A stretch of 64,000 bases of DNA. Origin: Aulosira sp. ZfuVER01. Its GTDB lineage: Bacteria > Cyanobacteriota > Cyanobacteriia > Cyanobacteriales > Nostocaceae. This document shows, piece by piece, positions 54,001 through 63,000 of this stretch. Position numbers: made by a program. The number at the start of each line of letters is the position of its first letter. Positions within the stretch are counted from its first letter, which is position 1. The stretch lies in NCBI GenBank assembly GCA_034530615.2, contig JAVRCV020000049.1, positions 253,459 through 317,458 of the forward strand, given 5' to 3'.

Positions 54001-57000
54001 GTTAGCCAAAGCCTCTTCGTATTCTCCCAATTCATATAGCCAATCACTGACATCTAAAAATAGACTACTGCTGAATTCAGGATGAGTATCAGTAGAAATA
54101 AGTTCAGCTTGCTCAATTGCTCGAAGTAGCAAATCTTTTCTTTGGCTAGGGTGGCTTCTCAGGGATTTATATAAAAGCCCAGCGTACTTACCCAGCCCAT
54201 CTTTCAAAAAGTCAACTTGATTTAAACAAGGTCTTAATACTGCTTCTAACTCTTCCTTAGAGGGGCCAGTCCCATTTTCGTAGTTCATTTCATATTGAGA
54301 TGGTTCATTTTCTAACATTACCCAACTAAAAAGAAAACCCAATGTTGTGCTTTTCAAAAACTTTTCAGTCGCATCGGGTAAGAGCTGATAATTCTCTACT
54401 GTTGCTTCGGCGATCACTGCTACAAAAGGAATAAATACTACTTCAATTTGCTTGAGATAGCGAGAAGCAAACAAATGGAAAATAAATTGACGCTGACCCT
54501 CATCCCTTCTAGCAAAAAGAGCATGATAGAGAAATTCAGCAGTGTATTTTCTCCAATCAGAATTTTCGTATTTTTCTGGTTCAGGGCTATCAACAGCAAC
54601 TTCCTGGTTTGCCCTTCCCTCATAATATATGGCTAGTAACTCATGAGTTGCACGAAATTCCGTTTTATCATCTTGATAAAATGAAAGTCGAAAAACATTA
54701 CGAGCCACATCATCCAAGCGATACTGACCTTGAACAAACTCAACAAAATCGCACTTTGTTAGCCAATCAAAACAGTTGAGAGTCGCATAAGCACCCGTTT
54801 CAAAATCTATTCCTTGTTTTTGCATTAAATACTCAATCAACGACCTATCAAACCAACGACAACAAGCTGCTAATTGCACTATCTGCTTTTGCTTTATACT
54901 CAGTCCTTGCAGTAGTAGTTCAGTAATCGCTTGGTTCCCACGAGAAAAATCAATATTTCTATTTGCTTCTTTCTCTCGTTTAATCCAGTTGAGATAGTAA
55001 GGTAAACCTTTAGTTGCTTTATATATTTTATGAATTTCACCAGATTTAGTAATGCCGATATGCTGAAGATATTCTTTTGTCTGTTCTTTATTGAATTCAT
55101 CTAGTCGTTGTTCATAAATCAAATCCCGATCCTGCTGCAATTTCCGCCAACTTTCTTTCTCAAGTACAGAACGCCGTCCTGCTACCACAATGCGAACAGG
55201 ATAAGATTTTAAAGCCGTATCTTCTAATAAATACTGCCACAGCCAAGTGTCAATATCTGATGGTGCTTTTTCATAGGTATCTAGAATCAGCACAATTGAG
55301 TGCTTTTGCTTTTGAGCTTTCTGTATCAAACCTTGAGCAAAGGCATGAGTTAACTTAGGTATTGGTTCCAGCATTAACTCCTGAAGTTCTTTGTTATTCT
55401 TGGTTGCTGGATGCTGTTGCAATAGTTCTTGCATACGCTCTTTACTTGATTTAAGCGCTTGTGGTGCATCCGATAACATTCCTCCGGCCTTAACCGCAGC
55501 ATCCAGACCTAAACTTAATGCTGTTCCGGGATCTCCCAAGTATCCTGCACTTGTTGCTAGTAGCATTCCTGTGCCTAATTCAAGCCAATCTTTAACTGTA
55601 TTTTGTTGTTGTGTATCAACTGATTTACCTTGAACAGGTTCAGTTTTTAGCTTGTAAAAAGTATCGTGATATCGCTCATAAAGTGATGTAAACGGGTCTG
55701 GTTTAGGTAAGATATCCCTTCGTAAAAGTCCCGTAGGTTTAGGTAATAGCTCATAAAGCTTTTCCATTAACTTCAATGGCGTTTCGATACCTGGTGTAAG
55801 ACCAAAAGACACTACTGCAAAGTCAGCTTGCGACTCGTGCATCTCTTGTAGTTTGTTGGTAAGGGTAGTTTTGCCAACTCCTCCAAACCCATAAACCTGA
55901 AACAAAAGTGAGTTAGACTCTGGAGATTCCAACGCCTTAGCAAATTTAGTGAAAAAGTCCTTGGCTTGCTGGCGAGAGATGTAAGGAGGTTTCTGATTAC
56001 TCATTTAGTCTTGGAAATACTGGAATGCTTGTATAAGATTTTAGCCAGTATTAATCTAATTCAGCATCTTTAAAATCATCTCTTTTAAGCAATTGTTTAA
56101 AAGCGAGATTGAATCGTCGTAATTTTTAATCTTACATTTGATACCAAACGATCACCCTTTCCCCTTTCCAAGCACAAACTTCATATTCCTCAACAACACC
56201 GTTATTTATTTCCGTAATCGCTTACGCTAAAGCGGTATTCATCAACTATTCGCATATCTCCATACCAGTGAATGCTGCTTACCATCACCACCACACACTC
56301 TCCAGCAACGGAGTTAGGCTACCTGTTACATAAACACCCAGACCGTTGTCAGTCTTTTTCTTTGACGTTTGGACAGGCGCACGTTTTCTACCCGGAAGCG
56401 AAACCAGAAAGCTGTACGGCGGCGTTGCTGTTAGATGTCGATCCGGTGAAGTTAGTGCGGGGAAAGGGTGCTAGGCTAGAACAGTATGTAAGCGATCGCC
56501 CTTATGTTGCTTCTTCATTTTTGAGTGTTGCGATCGCGCAAGTATTTAGCACTGCATTGTCAGGTCGTTGCAAAGATAAACCAGAACTTGCGCAAACTCC
56601 CATTCCTTTAGTTGTAAAAATCTCTGTCTTACCTTGTCGTGGTGGTGAAAGTTTTCTGCGCCAACTATTTGAACCGTTGGGTTACACAGTAAATGCCCAA
56701 AGCCACACCTTAGATGAGGAATTTCCTGATTGGGGACAGAGCAAATATTTTACGGTAGAACTGCAACACACCATACCACTCAGCGATTTATTGAGTCATC
56801 TTTATGTGTTAATTCCGGTGTTGGATGACGATAAACATTACTGGGTCAACGAGGATGAAATAGAAAAGTTACTGCGTCATGGTGAAGGTTGGTTAAGTCA
56901 ACATCCAGCGCGATCGCAAATTACCAGGCGTTACCTCAAGCGCCAGCATCGCTTAACTCGTGAAGCTTTAGCCCAACTCGCAGAAGAAGACAATCCAGAC

Positions 57001-60000: not shown

Positions 60001-63000
60001 CGCTGGGATGAAACAAGAAATGCAAGGGCGGGGTTCTGGTGCGGTGCGGGAGTTCGCGCTGTATGGCGAAAGTACAGGGGAAATTGATGAATTTGGCTTA
60101 CCCGTGCGCTACAACTGGGCGGGTGAGTACCGGGGTGAAGCAATGGTGGTATACGGACATACCCCTGTACCTGAGGCGGAATGGCTGAATAATACTATTG
60201 ATATTGATACAGGTTGCGTCTTTGGCGGTAAATTAACTGCGCTGCGCTATCCTGAAAGGGAATTGGTGAGTATACCTGCGGCGCGTACTTACTGCGAACC
60301 GATTAAACCTTTGGTGCAAAACACCTTTACCCGCACATCTCAGCAAGAACTGGATGATGTTTTGCACATTGAAGATGTATTAGGTAAGCGCATTATTAAC
60401 ACTCGACTGCAATCTAACATTACCATTCGCGAAGAAAATGCGATCGCAGCTTTAGAAGTAATGAGCCGGTTTGCAGCTAATCCCAAATGGTTGATTTACT
60501 TACCTCCTACCATGTCCCCGGTAGCGACATCCTCATTACCAGGATTGTTAGAACATCCTGCACAAGCTTTTAACTATTACCAAAGCCAAGAAATTACTGA
60601 GGTTGTATGCGAAGAAAAACACATGGGTTCGCGAGCAATAGTAATTGTTTGCCGAGATGTGGCTGCTGCACAGAAACGTTTTGGTGTGGTAGATGAAGGT
60701 ATCGGTATCTGCTACACCCGCACTGGAAGGCGATTTTTTGACGAGCCAGCACTGGAAACAGAACTCTTAGCGCGGGTAAATGCAGCCCTCTCTGCAAGCG
60801 GCTTTTGGGAAACATTTAATACCGACTGGGTATGTTTAGATTGTGAATTAATGCCTTGGTCAGCGAAAGCGCAGGGATTATTGCGATCGCAGTATGCACC
60901 TGTAGGAGTAGCATCACGCTTTGCTCTTAATGATGCCGTATCTTTGTTACAACAAGCAAGCGATCGCGGTGTAGACGTTACCAGCCAACTCAGCCACTAC
61001 CAACAACGCGCAGAGATGGCGCATCAATATGTTGCAGCTTATCGCCGTTACTGCTGGTCTGTCACCGATATTTCTCAGTTAAAGCTAGCTCCTTTCCACA
61101 TCCTAGCAACAGAGGGAGCCGTGCATATTGATAAAGACCACCGTTGGCACATGGAACAAGCCGCCAAAATTTGCCAAGCAGATCCATCTTTACTCCTAGC
61201 TACTGCTTACAAAGTCATCGATTTAACAGATCCTAGCAGCCAAGCTGAGGGAGTTCATTGGTGGGAAGAACTTACCAAAGCCGGGGGAGAAGGAATGGTA
61301 GTCAAACCTATGCAATACATTGTTCAAGGTAGCCGGGGGATTGTGCAACCTGCGGTGAAATGTCGCGGACAGGAATATCTGCGAATCATCTACGGCCCCG
61401 AATACTCCAGCCCAGAGAATCTGCAACGCCTGCGTCAAAGGGGGTTATCTCTCAAACGTTCTCTAGCCATGCGCGAATTTGCTCTAGGTGTGGAAGCCTT
61501 AGAGCGATTTGTCAACAATACCCCACTCCGCCGTGTCCATGAATGCGTTTTCGGCATTTTAGCGTTAGAGAGCGAACCAGTCGATCCGCGACTTTAATGC
61601 ATCGGCCTGTAATGCGATCGGATTGTTTGACGGATATCTTCCCAATCTTGAACAGTCATTTCTGTTGCATCTCCAGAATTTAATCCTTCCAGAAGTATTG
61701 TTTCAGGATATTCTTTAGCTCTTTGTTTTTGGTCTTGTCGCACTAATGCACAAAAATACTCGCTAACACTGCTGTAACCACCTTGAGCTACCTGCTCTTC
61801 CACATAAGCTCGCATTGTGTCAGGTAAAAAAATATTTATTCTTTTCACAAGAGTTCATATCTTGAATATGTTTTTCTACATTCTGGCAGTTTTTGCCATT
61901 TTAGGTTATGGAAAAAGAAGATGGAATAAGCGATAATAAAAACTTAATAATTTCTTGTATTAATGGATGTTGTTGTAATATATTAATTTCTTTCTCATTT
62001 ATATTGCTAAATATTCTTGAATTTATTTGCTTATTATTGCCAAATACTGTCTCTAAAAAATTTTTAGGATTTCTTTGTGCTAACTGCCATTCTAAATCAT
62101 TGAATTGGCATTTTGCTAGTTGTTCAATGAATAATTTATCTTGTAAAAATACGGTTTCTAATTCAGGAATTGCTAGAAAAAGTTGATAAGGGATTCCAGA
62201 TGATGCCTGATTTAATACATAATTGATTAAATCATACCTTTCAAATATTTGAGATTCGTTATCTGTATCTGCATCTAAGACAAGAGCAACAGGTGTTTTA
62301 CGAGTAGCAAGAAGAGAACTAGCTAAAGAACGCGCTCTATAAGAACTTTCACCAGGTATAAATTGGATATCTTGACTCAGATTTTTTGGCAATAATCTCT
62401 GTAAAATTTCTATATCTCTATTATCTTCTGTAATTATATATGCTAGTGTCATGGAATAATCTCCGTTGTAATGTCGTAGTTAGGGATACAATTTTGAACA
62501 CAAAAACGATATTTTTTGACTAGAAATTTACATATACATTTATTTGTTAGTGAATATTCAATTTCTTGCCCTCCCCACAATAAAATAGTTTGAGGTGCTA
62601 CAAATCCAGTTAATGTTACTGCTGCTTCTGTAAATCCACTGCGACTAAAAACACTACCAATAGCTGTAGCTGGCCTTCGTAATAATTGATTTCGTAGCTT
62701 TGCTATGGGTTCAATATTAACTTCTTTAGTTTCATCCTTACATTCGATCAAACAGGCTAGGCTGTCTGTATATACCACTCCGTCAATTTGTTCTACTATT
62801 GTATCTTGAATTTTTACACTATAAGGCCAAGCCACTTCAGCGCCATCAAGTTGGAAGGTGCGTAAAACTAAATATTCTAATGCTTTACCTTTATCCCAAA
62901 AGTTTGAGGTGTCTTTTGCTTTAATTTCTGACCATAATATAATTAAGTCATCCCAGTCATAAGTGATAATTCTTGCTTGATATTCTGCATCTGTAGTCAT

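What a model noticed while it worked through the whole genome (the two positions that open the first line are those of the whole stretch)
56272..61597. Pnkp-Hen1 RNA repair operon with a Thg1-like 3'-5' polymerase and an extra kinase inserted
Four tightly packed same-strand genes encode Hen1 (g04247), a 149-aa P-loop kinase (g04248), a Thg1-like protein (g04249, overlapping g04248 by 11 nt) and the kinase-phosphatase-ligase Pnkp (g04250). I read it as an extended RNA repair machine: beside healing, sealing and 2'-O-methylating a ribotoxin cut (Pnkp/Hen1), it can rebuild nucleotides lost from a 5' end by templated 3'-5' synthesis (Thg1-like enzyme with its own 5' kinase). New would be a coupling of the two known bacterial RNA repair chemistries in one operon.
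Evidence so far: Tables: g04247 Hen1_L + methyltransferase, NCBIfam Hen1; g04248 AAA_33, 31% to a polynucleotide phosphatase/kinase; g04249 Thg1+Thg1C, 32% to tRNA(His) guanylyltransferase; g04250 AAA_33+Metallophos+PNKP_ligase, NCBIfam polynucleotide kinase-phosphatase. Gaps between genes 24, -11 and 66 nt. neighbours.tsv: Thg1 within two genes of Hen1_L in 74 genomes and of PNKP_ligase in 71 genomes of 199,903 (39 and 29 in Cyanobacteriales), 8-10% of the genomes that hold both; AAA_33 next to Thg1 in 1189 genomes; Hen1_L next to AAA_33 in 7336. Thg1 is in 14 of 14 genus genomes but 89 of 388 in the family. No paper in the library holds Thg1 + Hen1 + Pnkp (0 hits, call 179); of 8 listed for Thg1-like + RNA [...]
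(Added by a program. Inside this text positions count along the whole contig: contig position 253,459 is position 1 of the stretch shown here. "Call 12" and the like, gene names such as g00115 and contig names such as C1 are that model's own, and its searches are not shown. The text may have been shortened before it was handed on; [...] marks where a part breaks off. The agent that wrote the report below was given it as the finding of a first reader that could run no searches.)

Follow-up and report, generated by a model that had tools for sequence, protein, structure and literature searches.

The report
RNA-repair operon with nested reverse polymerase
A Nostoc-type cyanobacterium carries the known Hen1/Pnkp RNA-mending genes with a small RNA kinase and a backwards-working (3'-5') RNA polymerase wedged between them, an arrangement that recurs in relatives and hints at what this puzzling polymerase does in bacteria.

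Summary
The four co-directional genes are real: hen1 (56272-57654), a 149-aa PNK-type kinase (57679-58128), a Thg1-like protein (TLP, 58118-58882) and pnkp (58949-61597), with gaps of 24, -11 and 66 nt. Catalytic motifs are intact in all four.

The kinase-TLP pair is a known bacterial module (Anantharaman et al. 2010). What I did not find in print is its nesting inside hen1->pnkp.

- The nesting is conserved: 47 of 389 genomes of the family, and 28 of the 80 closest TLP loci.
- Hen1 and TLP trees share clades.
- It looks assembled more than once: L121 holds a different TLP subfamily in the same slot. L078 has pnkp followed by RtcA, and L179 has Macro-Pnkp-Kin-TLP.
- Elsewhere the pair sits with other RNA-repair genes (RlaP, RNA ligase, RtcB).

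Against a fixed machine: the modules often separate, leaving gene scars. The hen1-pnkp slot also holds other cargo (MazEF, a HEAT-repeat protein, unrelated genes).

Best reading: a composite, co-regulated RNA-repair operon in which TLP is the nucleotide-restoring part. Physical or sequential coupling is untested. It is a new variant of a known kind, of moderate interest. Burroughs & Aravind 2016 could not be read and may list the arrangement.

The parts
56272..57654 (+). [quoted passage not shown]
   Evidence: 460 aa; Hen1_L 400 bits over residues 1-237; methyltransferase families over residues 266-425; TIGR04074 750 bits (cut-off 340)
57679..58128 (+). kin: 149-aa stand-alone P-loop polynucleotide 5'-kinase-like protein, the usual partner of bacterial TLPs
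   Evidence: AAA_33; Walker A GIQGAGKST. The best solved relatives are the mouse PNKP kinase domain (E 3e-11) and the C. thermocellum Pnkp kinase domain (E 2.6e-5). G8, G13, K14, D32, D57-N58-T59, R95-N96 and R99 are invariant in 39 sequences.
58118..58882 (+). tlp: Thg1-like protein (3'-5' nucleotidyltransferase family). GTG start overlaps the kin stop by 11 nt; an alternative TTG lies at 58100.
   Evidence: Thg1 + Thg1C; best solved relative is the M. acetivorans TLP 5axk (E 1.5e-33). D32, S79-D80-E81 are invariant in 39 sequences. The 11-nt overlap is kept in 55 of 60 Kin-TLP pairs of this subfamily.
58883..58948 (+). 66-nt spacer between tlp and pnkp; no promoter-like or terminator-like site on the + strand
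58949..61597 (+). pnkp: polynucleotide kinase - 2',3'-phosphatase - ligase. P-loop GASGSGKST is present.
   Evidence: AAA_33 (residues 10-141), Metallophos (181-408), PNKP_ligase (500-877, 625 bits); TIGR04075 1469 bits (cut-off 750)

Best explanation
This is a composite RNA-repair operon made of two separable modules. The outer module is the known Hen1/Pnkp system. [quoted passage not shown] The inner module is the known bacterial pair of a PNK-type kinase and a Thg1-like protein, translationally coupled by an 11-nt overlap. The kinase turns a 5'-OH into a 5'-phosphate. TLP activates that end and adds the missing nucleotides in the 3'-5' direction, using the opposite strand of a helix such as the tRNA acceptor stem as template. 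In the operon TLP fills the 'nucleotidyltransferase' position that RlaP fills in other ligase-based repair cassettes. One promoter would therefore deliver repair of simple nicks (Pnkp/Hen1) and of 5'-truncated or gapped RNAs (Kin/TLP). Shown here: gene content, intact catalytic motifs, conserved order, co-inheritance and repeated assembly with different ligase systems. Inferred: co-transcription, tRNA as substrate, and any hand-over between the two modules. The extra kinase is explained by inheritance of the pair as a unit, not by a defect in Pnkp's own kinase domain, whose P-loop and SSDFCRG motif are present (the catalytic role of that motif is recalled).
For: (1) Anatomy: gaps of 24, -11 and 66 nt, with no internal + strand promoter-like or terminator-like site.

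(2) Conservation. H-K-T-P order occurs in 28 of the 80 closest TLP loci (22 fully intact; 6 cut by contig ends or partly matched). Kin and TLP lie between Hen1 and Pnkp in 14 of the 80 closest Hen1 loci. Hen1_L and Thg1 lie within 3 kb on the same strand in 47 of 389 family genomes.

(3) Co-inheritance: the same clades appear in the TLP tree and the Hen1 tree. Examples are win+L002+L003+L005+L008, the Rivularia group, L016+L094, L013+L028+L060 and L012+L026+L019.

(4) Repeated assembly:
- L121 has Hen1 (69%) and Pnkp (71%) around a Kin/TLP pair of another subfamily (42% and 48% identity; long branch). The relatives of that pair are free-standing Kin-TLP pairs.
- L078 (unclassified bacterium) has Hen1(part)-Kin-TLP-Pnkp-RtcA.
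- L179 has PARG/Macro-Pnkp-Kin-TLP without Hen1.
- L063 has TLP-x-Pnkp.

(5) The pair also sits with other repair parts: RlaP-Kin-TLP-RNA_ligase (L070), RlaP-Kin-TLP-RlaP (L173), RlaP-TLP-RlaP (L162, L163), Kin-TLP-RlaP (L175) and RtcB-Kin-TLP (L169).

(6) Purifying selection on the catalytic motifs of Kin and TLP across 39 sequences each.

(7) Biochemistry in print: bacterial and archaeal TLPs restore 5'-truncated tRNAs by templated 3'-5' addition and need a 5'-phosphate or triphosphate (PMC3061083, abstract and passages). The kinase-Thg1 pair was predicted to act this way (PMC2904730).

(8) tRNA-His maturation is not the job. G-1 is genome-encoded upstream of both tRNA-His genes, and 295 of 389 family genomes show no Thg1 match.
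Against: - The modules are not bound to each other. Of 80 TLP loci, 30 have Kin-TLP without Hen1/Pnkp. Five of these have short matches to Hen1 or Pnkp beside an intact Kin-TLP (L004, L006, L011, L014, and a weak one in L017).
- 22 TLP loci have TLP without an intact Kin.
- 63 of the 80 closest Hen1 loci have no Kin or TLP. Loss of the insert is seen directly (L113 TLP scar, L116 and L083 Kin only).
- The Hen1 tree needs at least 8 changes of the insert state.
- In the window's own genus only 6 of 15 genomes keep the genes adjacent, and 4 hold both apart.
- In 6 Rivularia-type loci, 1.6-5.2 kb of other genes separates TLP from Pnkp. These are opposite-strand TPR/RTX genes or a same-strand S58 peptidase gene, so co-transcription cannot be general.
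- The hen1-pnkp slot also takes cargo with no link to RNA (Uma2, LRR).
- In the second TLP subfamily only 1 of 80 loci has Pnkp.
- TLP needs a template, which an anticodon-loop break (the classic Pnkp/Hen1 substrate, recalled) does not offer. The two modules may therefore act on different lesions.
- There are no expression or binding data.
Confidence: 0.6

Rival explanations
1. Two independent systems lie side by side. The space between hen1 and pnkp in cyanobacteria is a permissive insertion slot. The mobile Kin-TLP pair landed there once in an ancestor of heterocystous cyanobacteria and has persisted by linkage, with no functional interplay with Pnkp/Hen1.
For: - The slot holds varied cargo among the 80 Hen1 loci: MazF in 11 loci and MazE or its remnants in 24, a HEAT-repeat gene in 5 Hen1-anchored loci and in L010, plus Uma2, LRR, TetR and CHAT genes.
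- Opposite-strand TPR/RTX genes lie between TLP and Pnkp in Rivularia-type loci.
- Losses are frequent in both directions.
- Most Kin-TLP pairs elsewhere stand alone or beside unrelated genes.
- G+C differs along the operon: about 0.39 over kin-tlp and 0.47-0.49 over pnkp.
Against: - The same slot is filled by a different TLP subfamily in L121.
- Kin-TLP joins Pnkp in other orders and phyla (L078, L179, L063) and joins three other RNA ligase or repair families (L070, L169, L162/163/173/175).
- The orientation is always that of the operon.
- The pair is kept across much of the heterocystous Hen1 clade (33 of 54 rows).
- Part of the other cargo is itself RNA-damage related (MazF endoribonuclease).
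Confidence: 0.25
2. The locus is a conflict (anti-phage or anti-toxin) island. Kin-TLP acts on a substrate other than tRNA, such as phage or plasmid nucleic acid ends or 5'-end tagging, and shares only regulation with Pnkp/Hen1.
For: - The neighbours look defence-like: a KAP-NTPase/TPR protein (53275-56004, -), an Mrr_cat nuclease (62449-63000, -), a ParD-like antitoxin (61594-61848, -) and a DUF4238 fragment.
- The distribution across phyla is patchy with 65-70% identity, as for transferred genes.
- A recombination scar lies at the hen1 start.
- The physiological substrates of bacterial TLPs are unknown (PMC3061083, discussion passage).
Against: No defence-specific family was found in the four genes. 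I did not scan PADLOC. The only tested activity of relatives is on tRNA-like substrates.
Confidence: 0.1
3. TLP is a housekeeping tRNA-His guanylyltransferase that adds G-1, and its place in the operon is incidental.
For: The family name and the 32% similarity to tRNA-His guanylyltransferases.
Against: Both tRNA-His genes of the genome have a G encoded at -1 before the acceptor stem. Thg1 matches are seen in only 94 of 389 genomes of the family. Bacterial TLPs prefer 5'-truncated tRNAs to G-1 addition (PMC3061083, abstract).
Confidence: 0.03

Closest known systems
Bacterial Pnkp/Hen1 RNA repair system (Clostridium thermocellum, Anabaena variabilis; TIGR04075 / TIGR04074)
   Same: Both proteins are full-length members above the curated cut-offs, co-oriented in one cluster. 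The same hen1->pnkp order is seen in all 76 of the 80 closest Hen1 loci that show Pnkp.
   Different: Two extra genes (kinase and TLP) lie between the partners. In the closest insert-free relatives the two genes abut, with 0-3 nt between the matches in Acidobacteriaceae (L154-L161).
Conserved bacterial PNK-like kinase + Thg1 gene pair (Anantharaman, Iyer & Aravind 2010, PMC2904730); BtTLP/MaTLP tRNA 5'-end repair (Rao et al. 2011, PMC3061083)
   Same: The same two families in the same order, kinase first, with overlapping genes. The predicted chemistry is 5'-OH to 5'-P, then activation, then templated 3'-5' addition.
   Different: The published contexts are stand-alone pairs, pairs with Macro, or RNA_ligase-Thg1-Macro in Coprococcus (supplement). 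Neither the paper's text nor its supplement contains 'Hen1' (0 occurrences).
Pnkp1-Rnl-Hen1 three-protein repair complex (PMC4411300; search listing and abstract only)
   Same: It shows that Pnkp/Hen1 systems occur in rearranged, multi-gene forms.
   Different: That variant splits the ligase off. It adds no polymerase, and the paper holds no 'Thg1' (0 occurrences in the listing).
RlaP nucleotidyltransferase-bearing RNA ligase cassettes (Burroughs & Aravind 2016, not readable here; RlaP preprint PMC12776372, passages; jumbo-phage review PMC7824862, passage)
   Same: The same 'syntax': a ligase, end-healing enzymes and a nucleotide-restoring transferase. TLP and RlaP co-occur around Kin-TLP in L070, L162, L163, L173 and L175.
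   Different: RlaP is a Pol-beta-fold enzyme predicted to add to 3' ends. TLP is a palm-domain enzyme that adds to 5' ends on a template.

Membership tests
Bacterial Pnkp/Hen1 RNA repair system | Pnkp with N-terminal kinase, central metallophosphoesterase and C-terminal ligase domains | tested here: met
   AAA_33 10-141, Metallophos 181-408, PNKP_ligase 500-877; TIGR04075 1469 bits against cut-off 750, full length 1-882
Bacterial Pnkp/Hen1 RNA repair system | Hen1 with the N-terminal Pnkp-ligase-activating region and a C-terminal 2'-O-methyltransferase | tested here: met
   Hen1_L 1-237 (400 bits), methyltransferase domains 266-425; TIGR04074 750 bits against cut-off 340
Bacterial Pnkp/Hen1 RNA repair system | The two genes are adjacent and co-oriented in one operon | tested here: inconclusive
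   Co-oriented, but separated by 1294 nt that hold two genes. No internal promoter-like or terminator-like site. No RNA data.
Bacterial Pnkp/Hen1 RNA repair system | Pnkp2-Hen12 complex that repairs and 2'-O-methylates ribotoxin-cut tRNA in vitro | not testable with these tools
   Needs protein biochemistry
Thg1 / Thg1-like protein (TLP) family | Thg1 catalytic palm domain plus Thg1 C-terminal domain | tested here: met
   PF04446 117.5 bits (cut-off 29.2), PF14413 62.2 bits (cut-off 26.3); M. acetivorans TLP 5axk E 1.5e-33, human THG1 3otb E 4e-25
Thg1 / Thg1-like protein (TLP) family | Metal-binding carboxylates of the palm domain (one Asp in the RxDG motif, and the Asp-Glu of SDE) | tested here: met
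   D32, S79, D80 and E81 are invariant in 39 sequences of both subfamilies and align to RLDGR and SDE of 5axk and 3otb. That these are the catalytic residues is recalled from the structure papers, not from a call.
Thg1 / Thg1-like protein (TLP) family | [quoted passage not shown] | not testable with these tools
   Shown for B. thuringiensis and M. acetivorans TLPs (PMC3061083), not for this protein
PNK-type kinase partner of bacterial Thg1 (Anantharaman et al. 2010) | [quoted passage not shown] | tested here: met
   Walker A and D32 invariant; best solved relatives are PNKP kinase domains; the 11-nt overlap with tlp is kept in 55 of 60 pairs. TIGR01663 scores 44.6 bits, far below its cut-off of 502.8, because that model also spans the phosphatase.

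The most novel reading that the evidence does not exclude
Kin/TLP and Pnkp/Hen1 form one sequential pathway, a reverse-direction gap-filling repair of structured RNA. After a ribotoxin cut plus loss of nucleotides from the 5' side of a break within a helix, Kin phosphorylates the 5'-OH. TLP then refills the gap 3'->5' on the opposite strand and leaves a 5'-phosphate next to the Hen1-methylated 3' end, which the Pnkp ligase seals. That would be an RNA counterpart of DNA gap-filling repair that runs backwards, and the first physiological role for a bacterial TLP.
Probability: 0.2. Interest if true: 0.8.

Novelty: new variant of a known kind. Interest (0 to 1): 0.5.

Why it matters
The in-vivo role of bacterial Thg1-like proteins has been open since their tRNA 5'-end repair activity was shown in vitro. 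The authors themselves call identification of physiological substrates a future goal (PMC3061083, discussion passage).

Here the kinase-TLP pair is repeatedly built into cassettes around four different RNA-sealing or end-modifying enzymes: Pnkp/Hen1, RNA_ligase+RlaP, RtcB and RtcA. That places TLP in ribotoxin-damage repair and names concrete strains and substrates for testing.

Cyanobacterial Pnkp/Hen1 is one of the two model systems of the field (recalled). A natural version with a built-in 3'-5' polymerase offers a direct way to ask whether RNA repair can restore lost sequence and not only reseal nicks.

The variable slot between hen1 and pnkp (Kin-TLP, a HEAT-repeat protein, MazEF) is a useful place to look for further accessory factors.

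Tried and rejected
- RNA evidence: no RNA holder was listed for window 55900-61900, so co-transcription could not be examined and read laying was not used.
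- Complex prediction of TLP with the kinase, each given as an alignment (A2 + A1): no verdict, score 0.00 in two runs. This is not evidence either way.
- Literature: Burroughs & Aravind 2016 (10.1093/nar/gkw722, PMC5062991) and Heinemann et al. 2010 (PMC2922398) are not held.
- Searches: 'Thg1'+'Hen1' gave 3 papers, none on co-occurrence. 'RNA repair systems'/'Thg1'/'Pnkp' gave no paper with both Thg1 and bacterial Pnkp; the two papers that hold both words are on human genetics. 'Thg1-like'+'cyanobacteria' gave 1 paper, which is irrelevant. 'Thg1'/'RtcB'/'RlaP'/'PNKP_ligase' gave nothing on this arrangement.
- Promoter and terminator scan: 5 promoter-like sites against 12.0 expected from shuffles, and none in the internal gaps on the + strand. 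This is weak and only compatible with one operon.
- Idea that the extra kinase replaces a dead Pnkp kinase domain: rejected, because the Pnkp P-loop and the SSDFCRG motif are present.
- Idea that the upstream 299-303-aa genes of Calothrix Kin-TLP loci and the L076 288-aa gene are HEAT-protein relatives: no similarity found.
- Earlier notes of this scan: none for this genome and none with Thg1 plus Hen1/Pnkp.

Full report
OBSERVATION. The window holds four co-directional ORFs on the + strand at the stated coordinates.
- 56272-57654 (460 aa) is Hen1: Hen1_L 400 bits plus methyltransferase domains, and TIGR04074 750 bits against a cut-off of 340.
- 57679-58128 (149 aa) is an AAA_33 kinase.
- 58118-58882 is a Thg1 + Thg1C protein. 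Its start is the GTG at 58118; the mechanical ORF starts at a TTG at 58100.
- 58949-61597 (882 aa) is Pnkp: TIGR04075 1469 bits against a cut-off of 750.

The gaps are 24, -11 and 66 nt. The genome (8.03 Mb, 83 contigs) has one Thg1 gene and one full Hen1. By similarity it is a Nostoc-type genome. The nearest TLP and Hen1 sequences are those of Nostoc sp. 106C and T09, at 94-98%.

THE PARTS LOOK ACTIVE.

The small kinase has the Walker A motif GIQGAGKST. Its best solved relatives are the kinase domain of mouse PNKP (E 3e-11) and the kinase domain of C. thermocellum Pnkp (E 2.6e-5). In an alignment of 39 partners of TLPs from many phyla, G8, G13, K14, D32, D57-N58-T59, R95-N96 and R99 are invariant.

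The TLP is closest to the Methanosarcina acetivorans TLP structure 5axk (E 1.5e-33). D32 and S79-D80-E81 are invariant in 39 sequences. I recall, but did not verify by a call, that these are the metal-binding carboxylates.

Pnkp keeps its own P-loop and SSDFCRG motif. The extra kinase is therefore not a replacement for a dead domain.

WHAT IS ALREADY KNOWN. Anantharaman, Iyer and Aravind (2010, PMC2904730; passages and supplement read) reported three things.
- In bacteria the most persistent neighbour of Thg1 is a polynucleotide-kinase-family P-loop kinase.
- Some neighbourhoods add a Macro domain or an RNA ligase (Coprococcus: RNA_ligase-Thg1-Macro).
- They read this as an RNA repair role, with the kinase making the 5'-phosphate that Thg1 needs.

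'Hen1' does not occur in that text or its supplement. Rao et al. (2011, PMC3061083; abstract and passages) showed that B. thuringiensis and M. acetivorans TLPs restore 5'-truncated tRNAs by templated 3'-5' addition. They said the physiological substrates are unknown.

I found no paper that places Thg1 with Pnkp/Hen1. The survey most likely to list it, Burroughs & Aravind 2016, is not held.

HOW WIDESPREAD IS THE NESTING?

(a) TLP-anchored loci. These are the best 80 of 279 confirmed relatives, with up to 7 kb on each side.
- Hen1-Kin-TLP-Pnkp on one strand occurs in 28 of 80. Of these, 22 are intact by my ORF rule. The other 6 are cut by a contig end, partly matched, or failed my rule (L002, L058, L043, L078, L023, L048).
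- Kin-TLP without Hen1/Pnkp occurs in 30. Five of these have short matches to Hen1 or Pnkp right beside an intact Kin-TLP (L004, L006, L011, L014, and a weak one in L017).
- TLP without an intact Kin occurs in 22. This group includes Hen1-TLP in L038 and L067, and TLP-x-Pnkp in L063.

(b) Hen1-anchored loci. These are the best 80 of at least 556 relatives, and many are the same contigs as in (a).
- Pnkp lies downstream on the same strand in 76.
- Kin and TLP lie between them in 14.
- Kin alone is present in 2 (L083, L116).
- A TLP scar of residues 1-35 is present in 1 (L113).
- Neither is present in 63. In Acidobacteriaceae the two genes abut.

(c) Unbiased census of the family, 389 genomes including this one.
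- Thg1 matches in 94 and Hen1_L in 151.
- By my reading of the listed coordinates, Thg1 lies within 3 kb downstream of Hen1_L on the same strand in 47 genomes.
- 16 genomes have both genes but not adjacent: 8 on different contigs, 5 at 10-34 kb, and 3 far apart.
- 7 genomes have Thg1 with only weak Hen1_L matches (E 2e-8 to 2.4e-4).
- 17 weak Hen1_L matches were not listed by the tool, so remnants are undercounted.
- In the window's own genus (15 genomes), 6 keep the genes adjacent, 4 hold both apart, 3 have Thg1 with only weak Hen1_L matches, and 2 have no Hen1.

CO-INHERITANCE AND LOSS. Both trees are quick IQ-TREE LG+G4 runs with SH-aLRT support only. The TLP tree has 81 rows and the Hen1 tree has 96 rows.

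They share clades among loci that have all four genes: window+L002+L003+L005+L008, the Rivularia group, L016+L094, L013+L028+L060, L012+L026+L019, L009+L010 and L040+L042.

In the Hen1 tree the heterocystous clade holds 33 rows with the insert and 21 without, intermixed. Starred branches force at least 8 changes. Together with the scars, the simplest history is one insertion early in this clade, followed by repeated loss of either module.

REPEATED ASSEMBLY. Five observations point to more than one origin.

1. L121 is a non-heterocystous cyanobacterial MAG. It has Hen1 (69%) and Pnkp (71%) of the Microcoleus-type clade around a Kin (42%) and TLP (48%) of a different TLP subfamily, which forms a long branch. 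Of the 80 best relatives of that TLP (out of 186), 58 have the kinase upstream. Only one, L179, has Pnkp.
2. L179 (Chamaesiphon MAG) reads PARG/Macro-fold protein - Pnkp - Kin - TLP, with no Hen1 within 7 kb.
3. L078 (unclassified bacterium) reads Hen1 (matched from residue 178 only) - Kin - TLP - Pnkp - RtcA. Its TLP groups with L070 and L077 (SH-aLRT 100), not with cyanobacteria.
4. L063 (Thermoguttaceae) reads TLP - unknown 233-aa gene - Pnkp. TLP is at the contig edge.
5. I scanned 81 same-strand neighbours of TLP or Kin-TLP. These were 81 of 96 candidates; I dropped 15 that were near-copies from sister loci or had already been scanned. RNA-repair families recur among them:
 - RlaP-Kin-TLP-RNA_ligase (L070);
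 - RlaP-Kin-TLP-RlaP (L173);
 - RlaP-TLP-RlaP (L162, L163);
 - Kin-TLP-RlaP (L175);
 - intein-bearing RtcB-Kin-TLP (L169).

 Nucleotide hydrolases also appear (NUDIX in L018, MazG in L035, HD in L180 and L199). The majority of the 81 neighbours are unrelated to RNA or match no family.

THE PAIR IS A UNIT. The 11-nt overlap of the kinase stop with the TLP start is kept in 55 of 60 pairs of the window's subfamily. Most pairs of the second subfamily also overlap, by 4-20 nt (TLP starts were inferred from the alignment to the query). This fits translational coupling. It also explains why a second kinase travels into an operon that already has one.

THE SLOT IS VARIABLE. Between hen1 and pnkp other lineages carry different cargo.
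- A MazE-MazF (PemK) pair: MazF in 11 and MazE or its remnants in 24 of the 80 Hen1 loci, mostly Microcoleus.
- A HEAT-repeat protein in L101-L103, L113 and L118. The same protein family appears as Hen1-HEAT-Kin-TLP-Pnkp in L010 and as HEAT-Kin-TLP in a planctomycete (L081, 45% identity).
- Uma2, LRR and TetR genes.

In 6 Rivularia-type loci, 1.6-5.2 kb of other genes separates TLP from Pnkp. These are opposite-strand TPR or RTX genes, or a same-strand S58 peptidase gene. The arrangement therefore tolerates disruption, and one transcript cannot be the rule everywhere.

MECHANISM. Steps are marked as shown or inferred.
- Shown: gene content, intact motifs, conserved order, co-inheritance, and recurrent joining to ligase systems.
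- Established for relatives: Pnkp/Hen1 heals, methylates and seals breaks (recalled). TLPs add templated nucleotides 3'-5' to 5'-truncated tRNAs (PMC3061083).
- Inferred: the operon is one transcript, since no internal signals were found. Kin supplies the 5'-phosphate to TLP. TLP plays the nucleotide-restoring role that RlaP plays in other cassettes. The operon thereby covers both nicks and 5'-truncations.

A stricter reading, sequential gap filling followed by Pnkp sealing, is possible but untested. TLP needs a template, which the anticodon loop lacks. I give that reading about 0.2.

A housekeeping role in tRNA-His maturation is unlikely. G-1 is encoded before both tRNA-His genes, and most genomes of the family lack TLP.

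VERDICT. This is a new variant of known systems, a known kinase-TLP module nested in a known Pnkp/Hen1 operon. It is recurrent and probably functional, but separable. No evidence yet shows that the two chemistries act on the same molecule. Interest is moderate (0.5). It gives the TLP field a concrete physiological context and test system, but it confirms a comparative-genomics prediction from 2010 and does not overturn anything.

Noticed in passing
window 52978-53205 (+), compared with 56174-56400: A remnant copy of the hen1 upstream region plus the first 38 codons (Hen1_L positions 1-38, 54 bits) lies 3.2 kb upstream of the real hen1 start. It sits on the far side of the divergent KAP-NTPase/TPR gene (53275-56004, -). 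The remnant is closer (85-88%) to the hen1 starts of the nearest relatives (L002, L003, L008) than the working start is (77-81%). Window 55175-56399 is 87.8% identical to a Trichormus locus (L013). It looks as if a foreign segment carrying the KAP/TPR gene and a hen1 5' end recombined in and left the old 5' end as a scar.
   Followed up: partly
L127, L130-L132, L135, L137, L139, L141-L143, L153 (e.g. L141:8447-9039): In Microcoleus-type loci a MazE antitoxin and a PemK/MazF endoribonuclease toxin pair sits between hen1 and pnkp on the same strand. MazF is present in 11 and MazE or its remnants in 24 of the 80 Hen1-anchored loci. An RNA-cutting toxin inside an RNA-repair operon is worth its own look.
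   Followed up: partly
L101:8380-9171, L102, L103, L113:8389-9315, L118, L010:5741-6511, L081:5700-6557: A 263-308-aa HEAT-repeat protein (PF13646) recurs with both modules: Hen1-HEAT-Pnkp in five loci, Hen1-HEAT-Kin-TLP-Pnkp in L010, and HEAT-Kin-TLP in a planctomycete (45% identity). It may be an accessory or scaffold factor of these repair cassettes. It is absent from the window.
   Followed up: partly
L078:2037-8449: An unclassified bacterium has Hen1 (only residues 178-458 matched, so possibly truncated or frameshifted in the MAG), then Kin, TLP, Pnkp and RtcA (RNA 3'-phosphate cyclase), all on one strand.
   Followed up: partly
L070:1763-4759; L173:3567-6546; L162, L163, L175; L169:4698-7759: Kin-TLP or TLP is flanked by RlaP nucleotidyltransferases and/or an RNA_ligase (PF09414), or preceded by an intein-containing RtcB. 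These are alternative ligase partners for the same module.
   Followed up: partly
L179:2566-7744: A Chamaesiphon MAG has a PARG/Macro-fold protein, then Pnkp, Kin and TLP, with no Hen1 within 7 kb upstream. Here a Pnkp is apparently without its usual activator and is next to a Macro-fold gene, echoing the Macro-kinase-Thg1 neighbourhoods reported in 2010.
   Followed up: no
window 61594-63609: Downstream neighbours look like conflict genes. A ParD-like antitoxin ORF (61594-61848, -) has an end that overlaps the pnkp stop by 4 nt. There is a 183-aa ORF with no family (61901-62452, -), an Mrr_cat nuclease-like ORF (62449-63000, -) and a short DUF4238 fragment (63298-63609, +). G+C drops to 0.31-0.34 here.
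   Followed up: no
window 58949-61597, Pnkp residues about 208-240: Pnkp carries a low-complexity insert (KGDKGDRGDKEE...HTPHTPHTPPSP) between the kinase and the core of the phosphatase domain. Pnkp length varies among relatives (850-926 aa).
   Followed up: no
G018, G020, G021, G026 (own genus); L007, L015, L020-L022: In several close relatives TLP stands alone, without the kinase and away from Hen1/Pnkp, which lie elsewhere in the genome. TLP is therefore kept even when stripped of all three partners.
   Followed up: no
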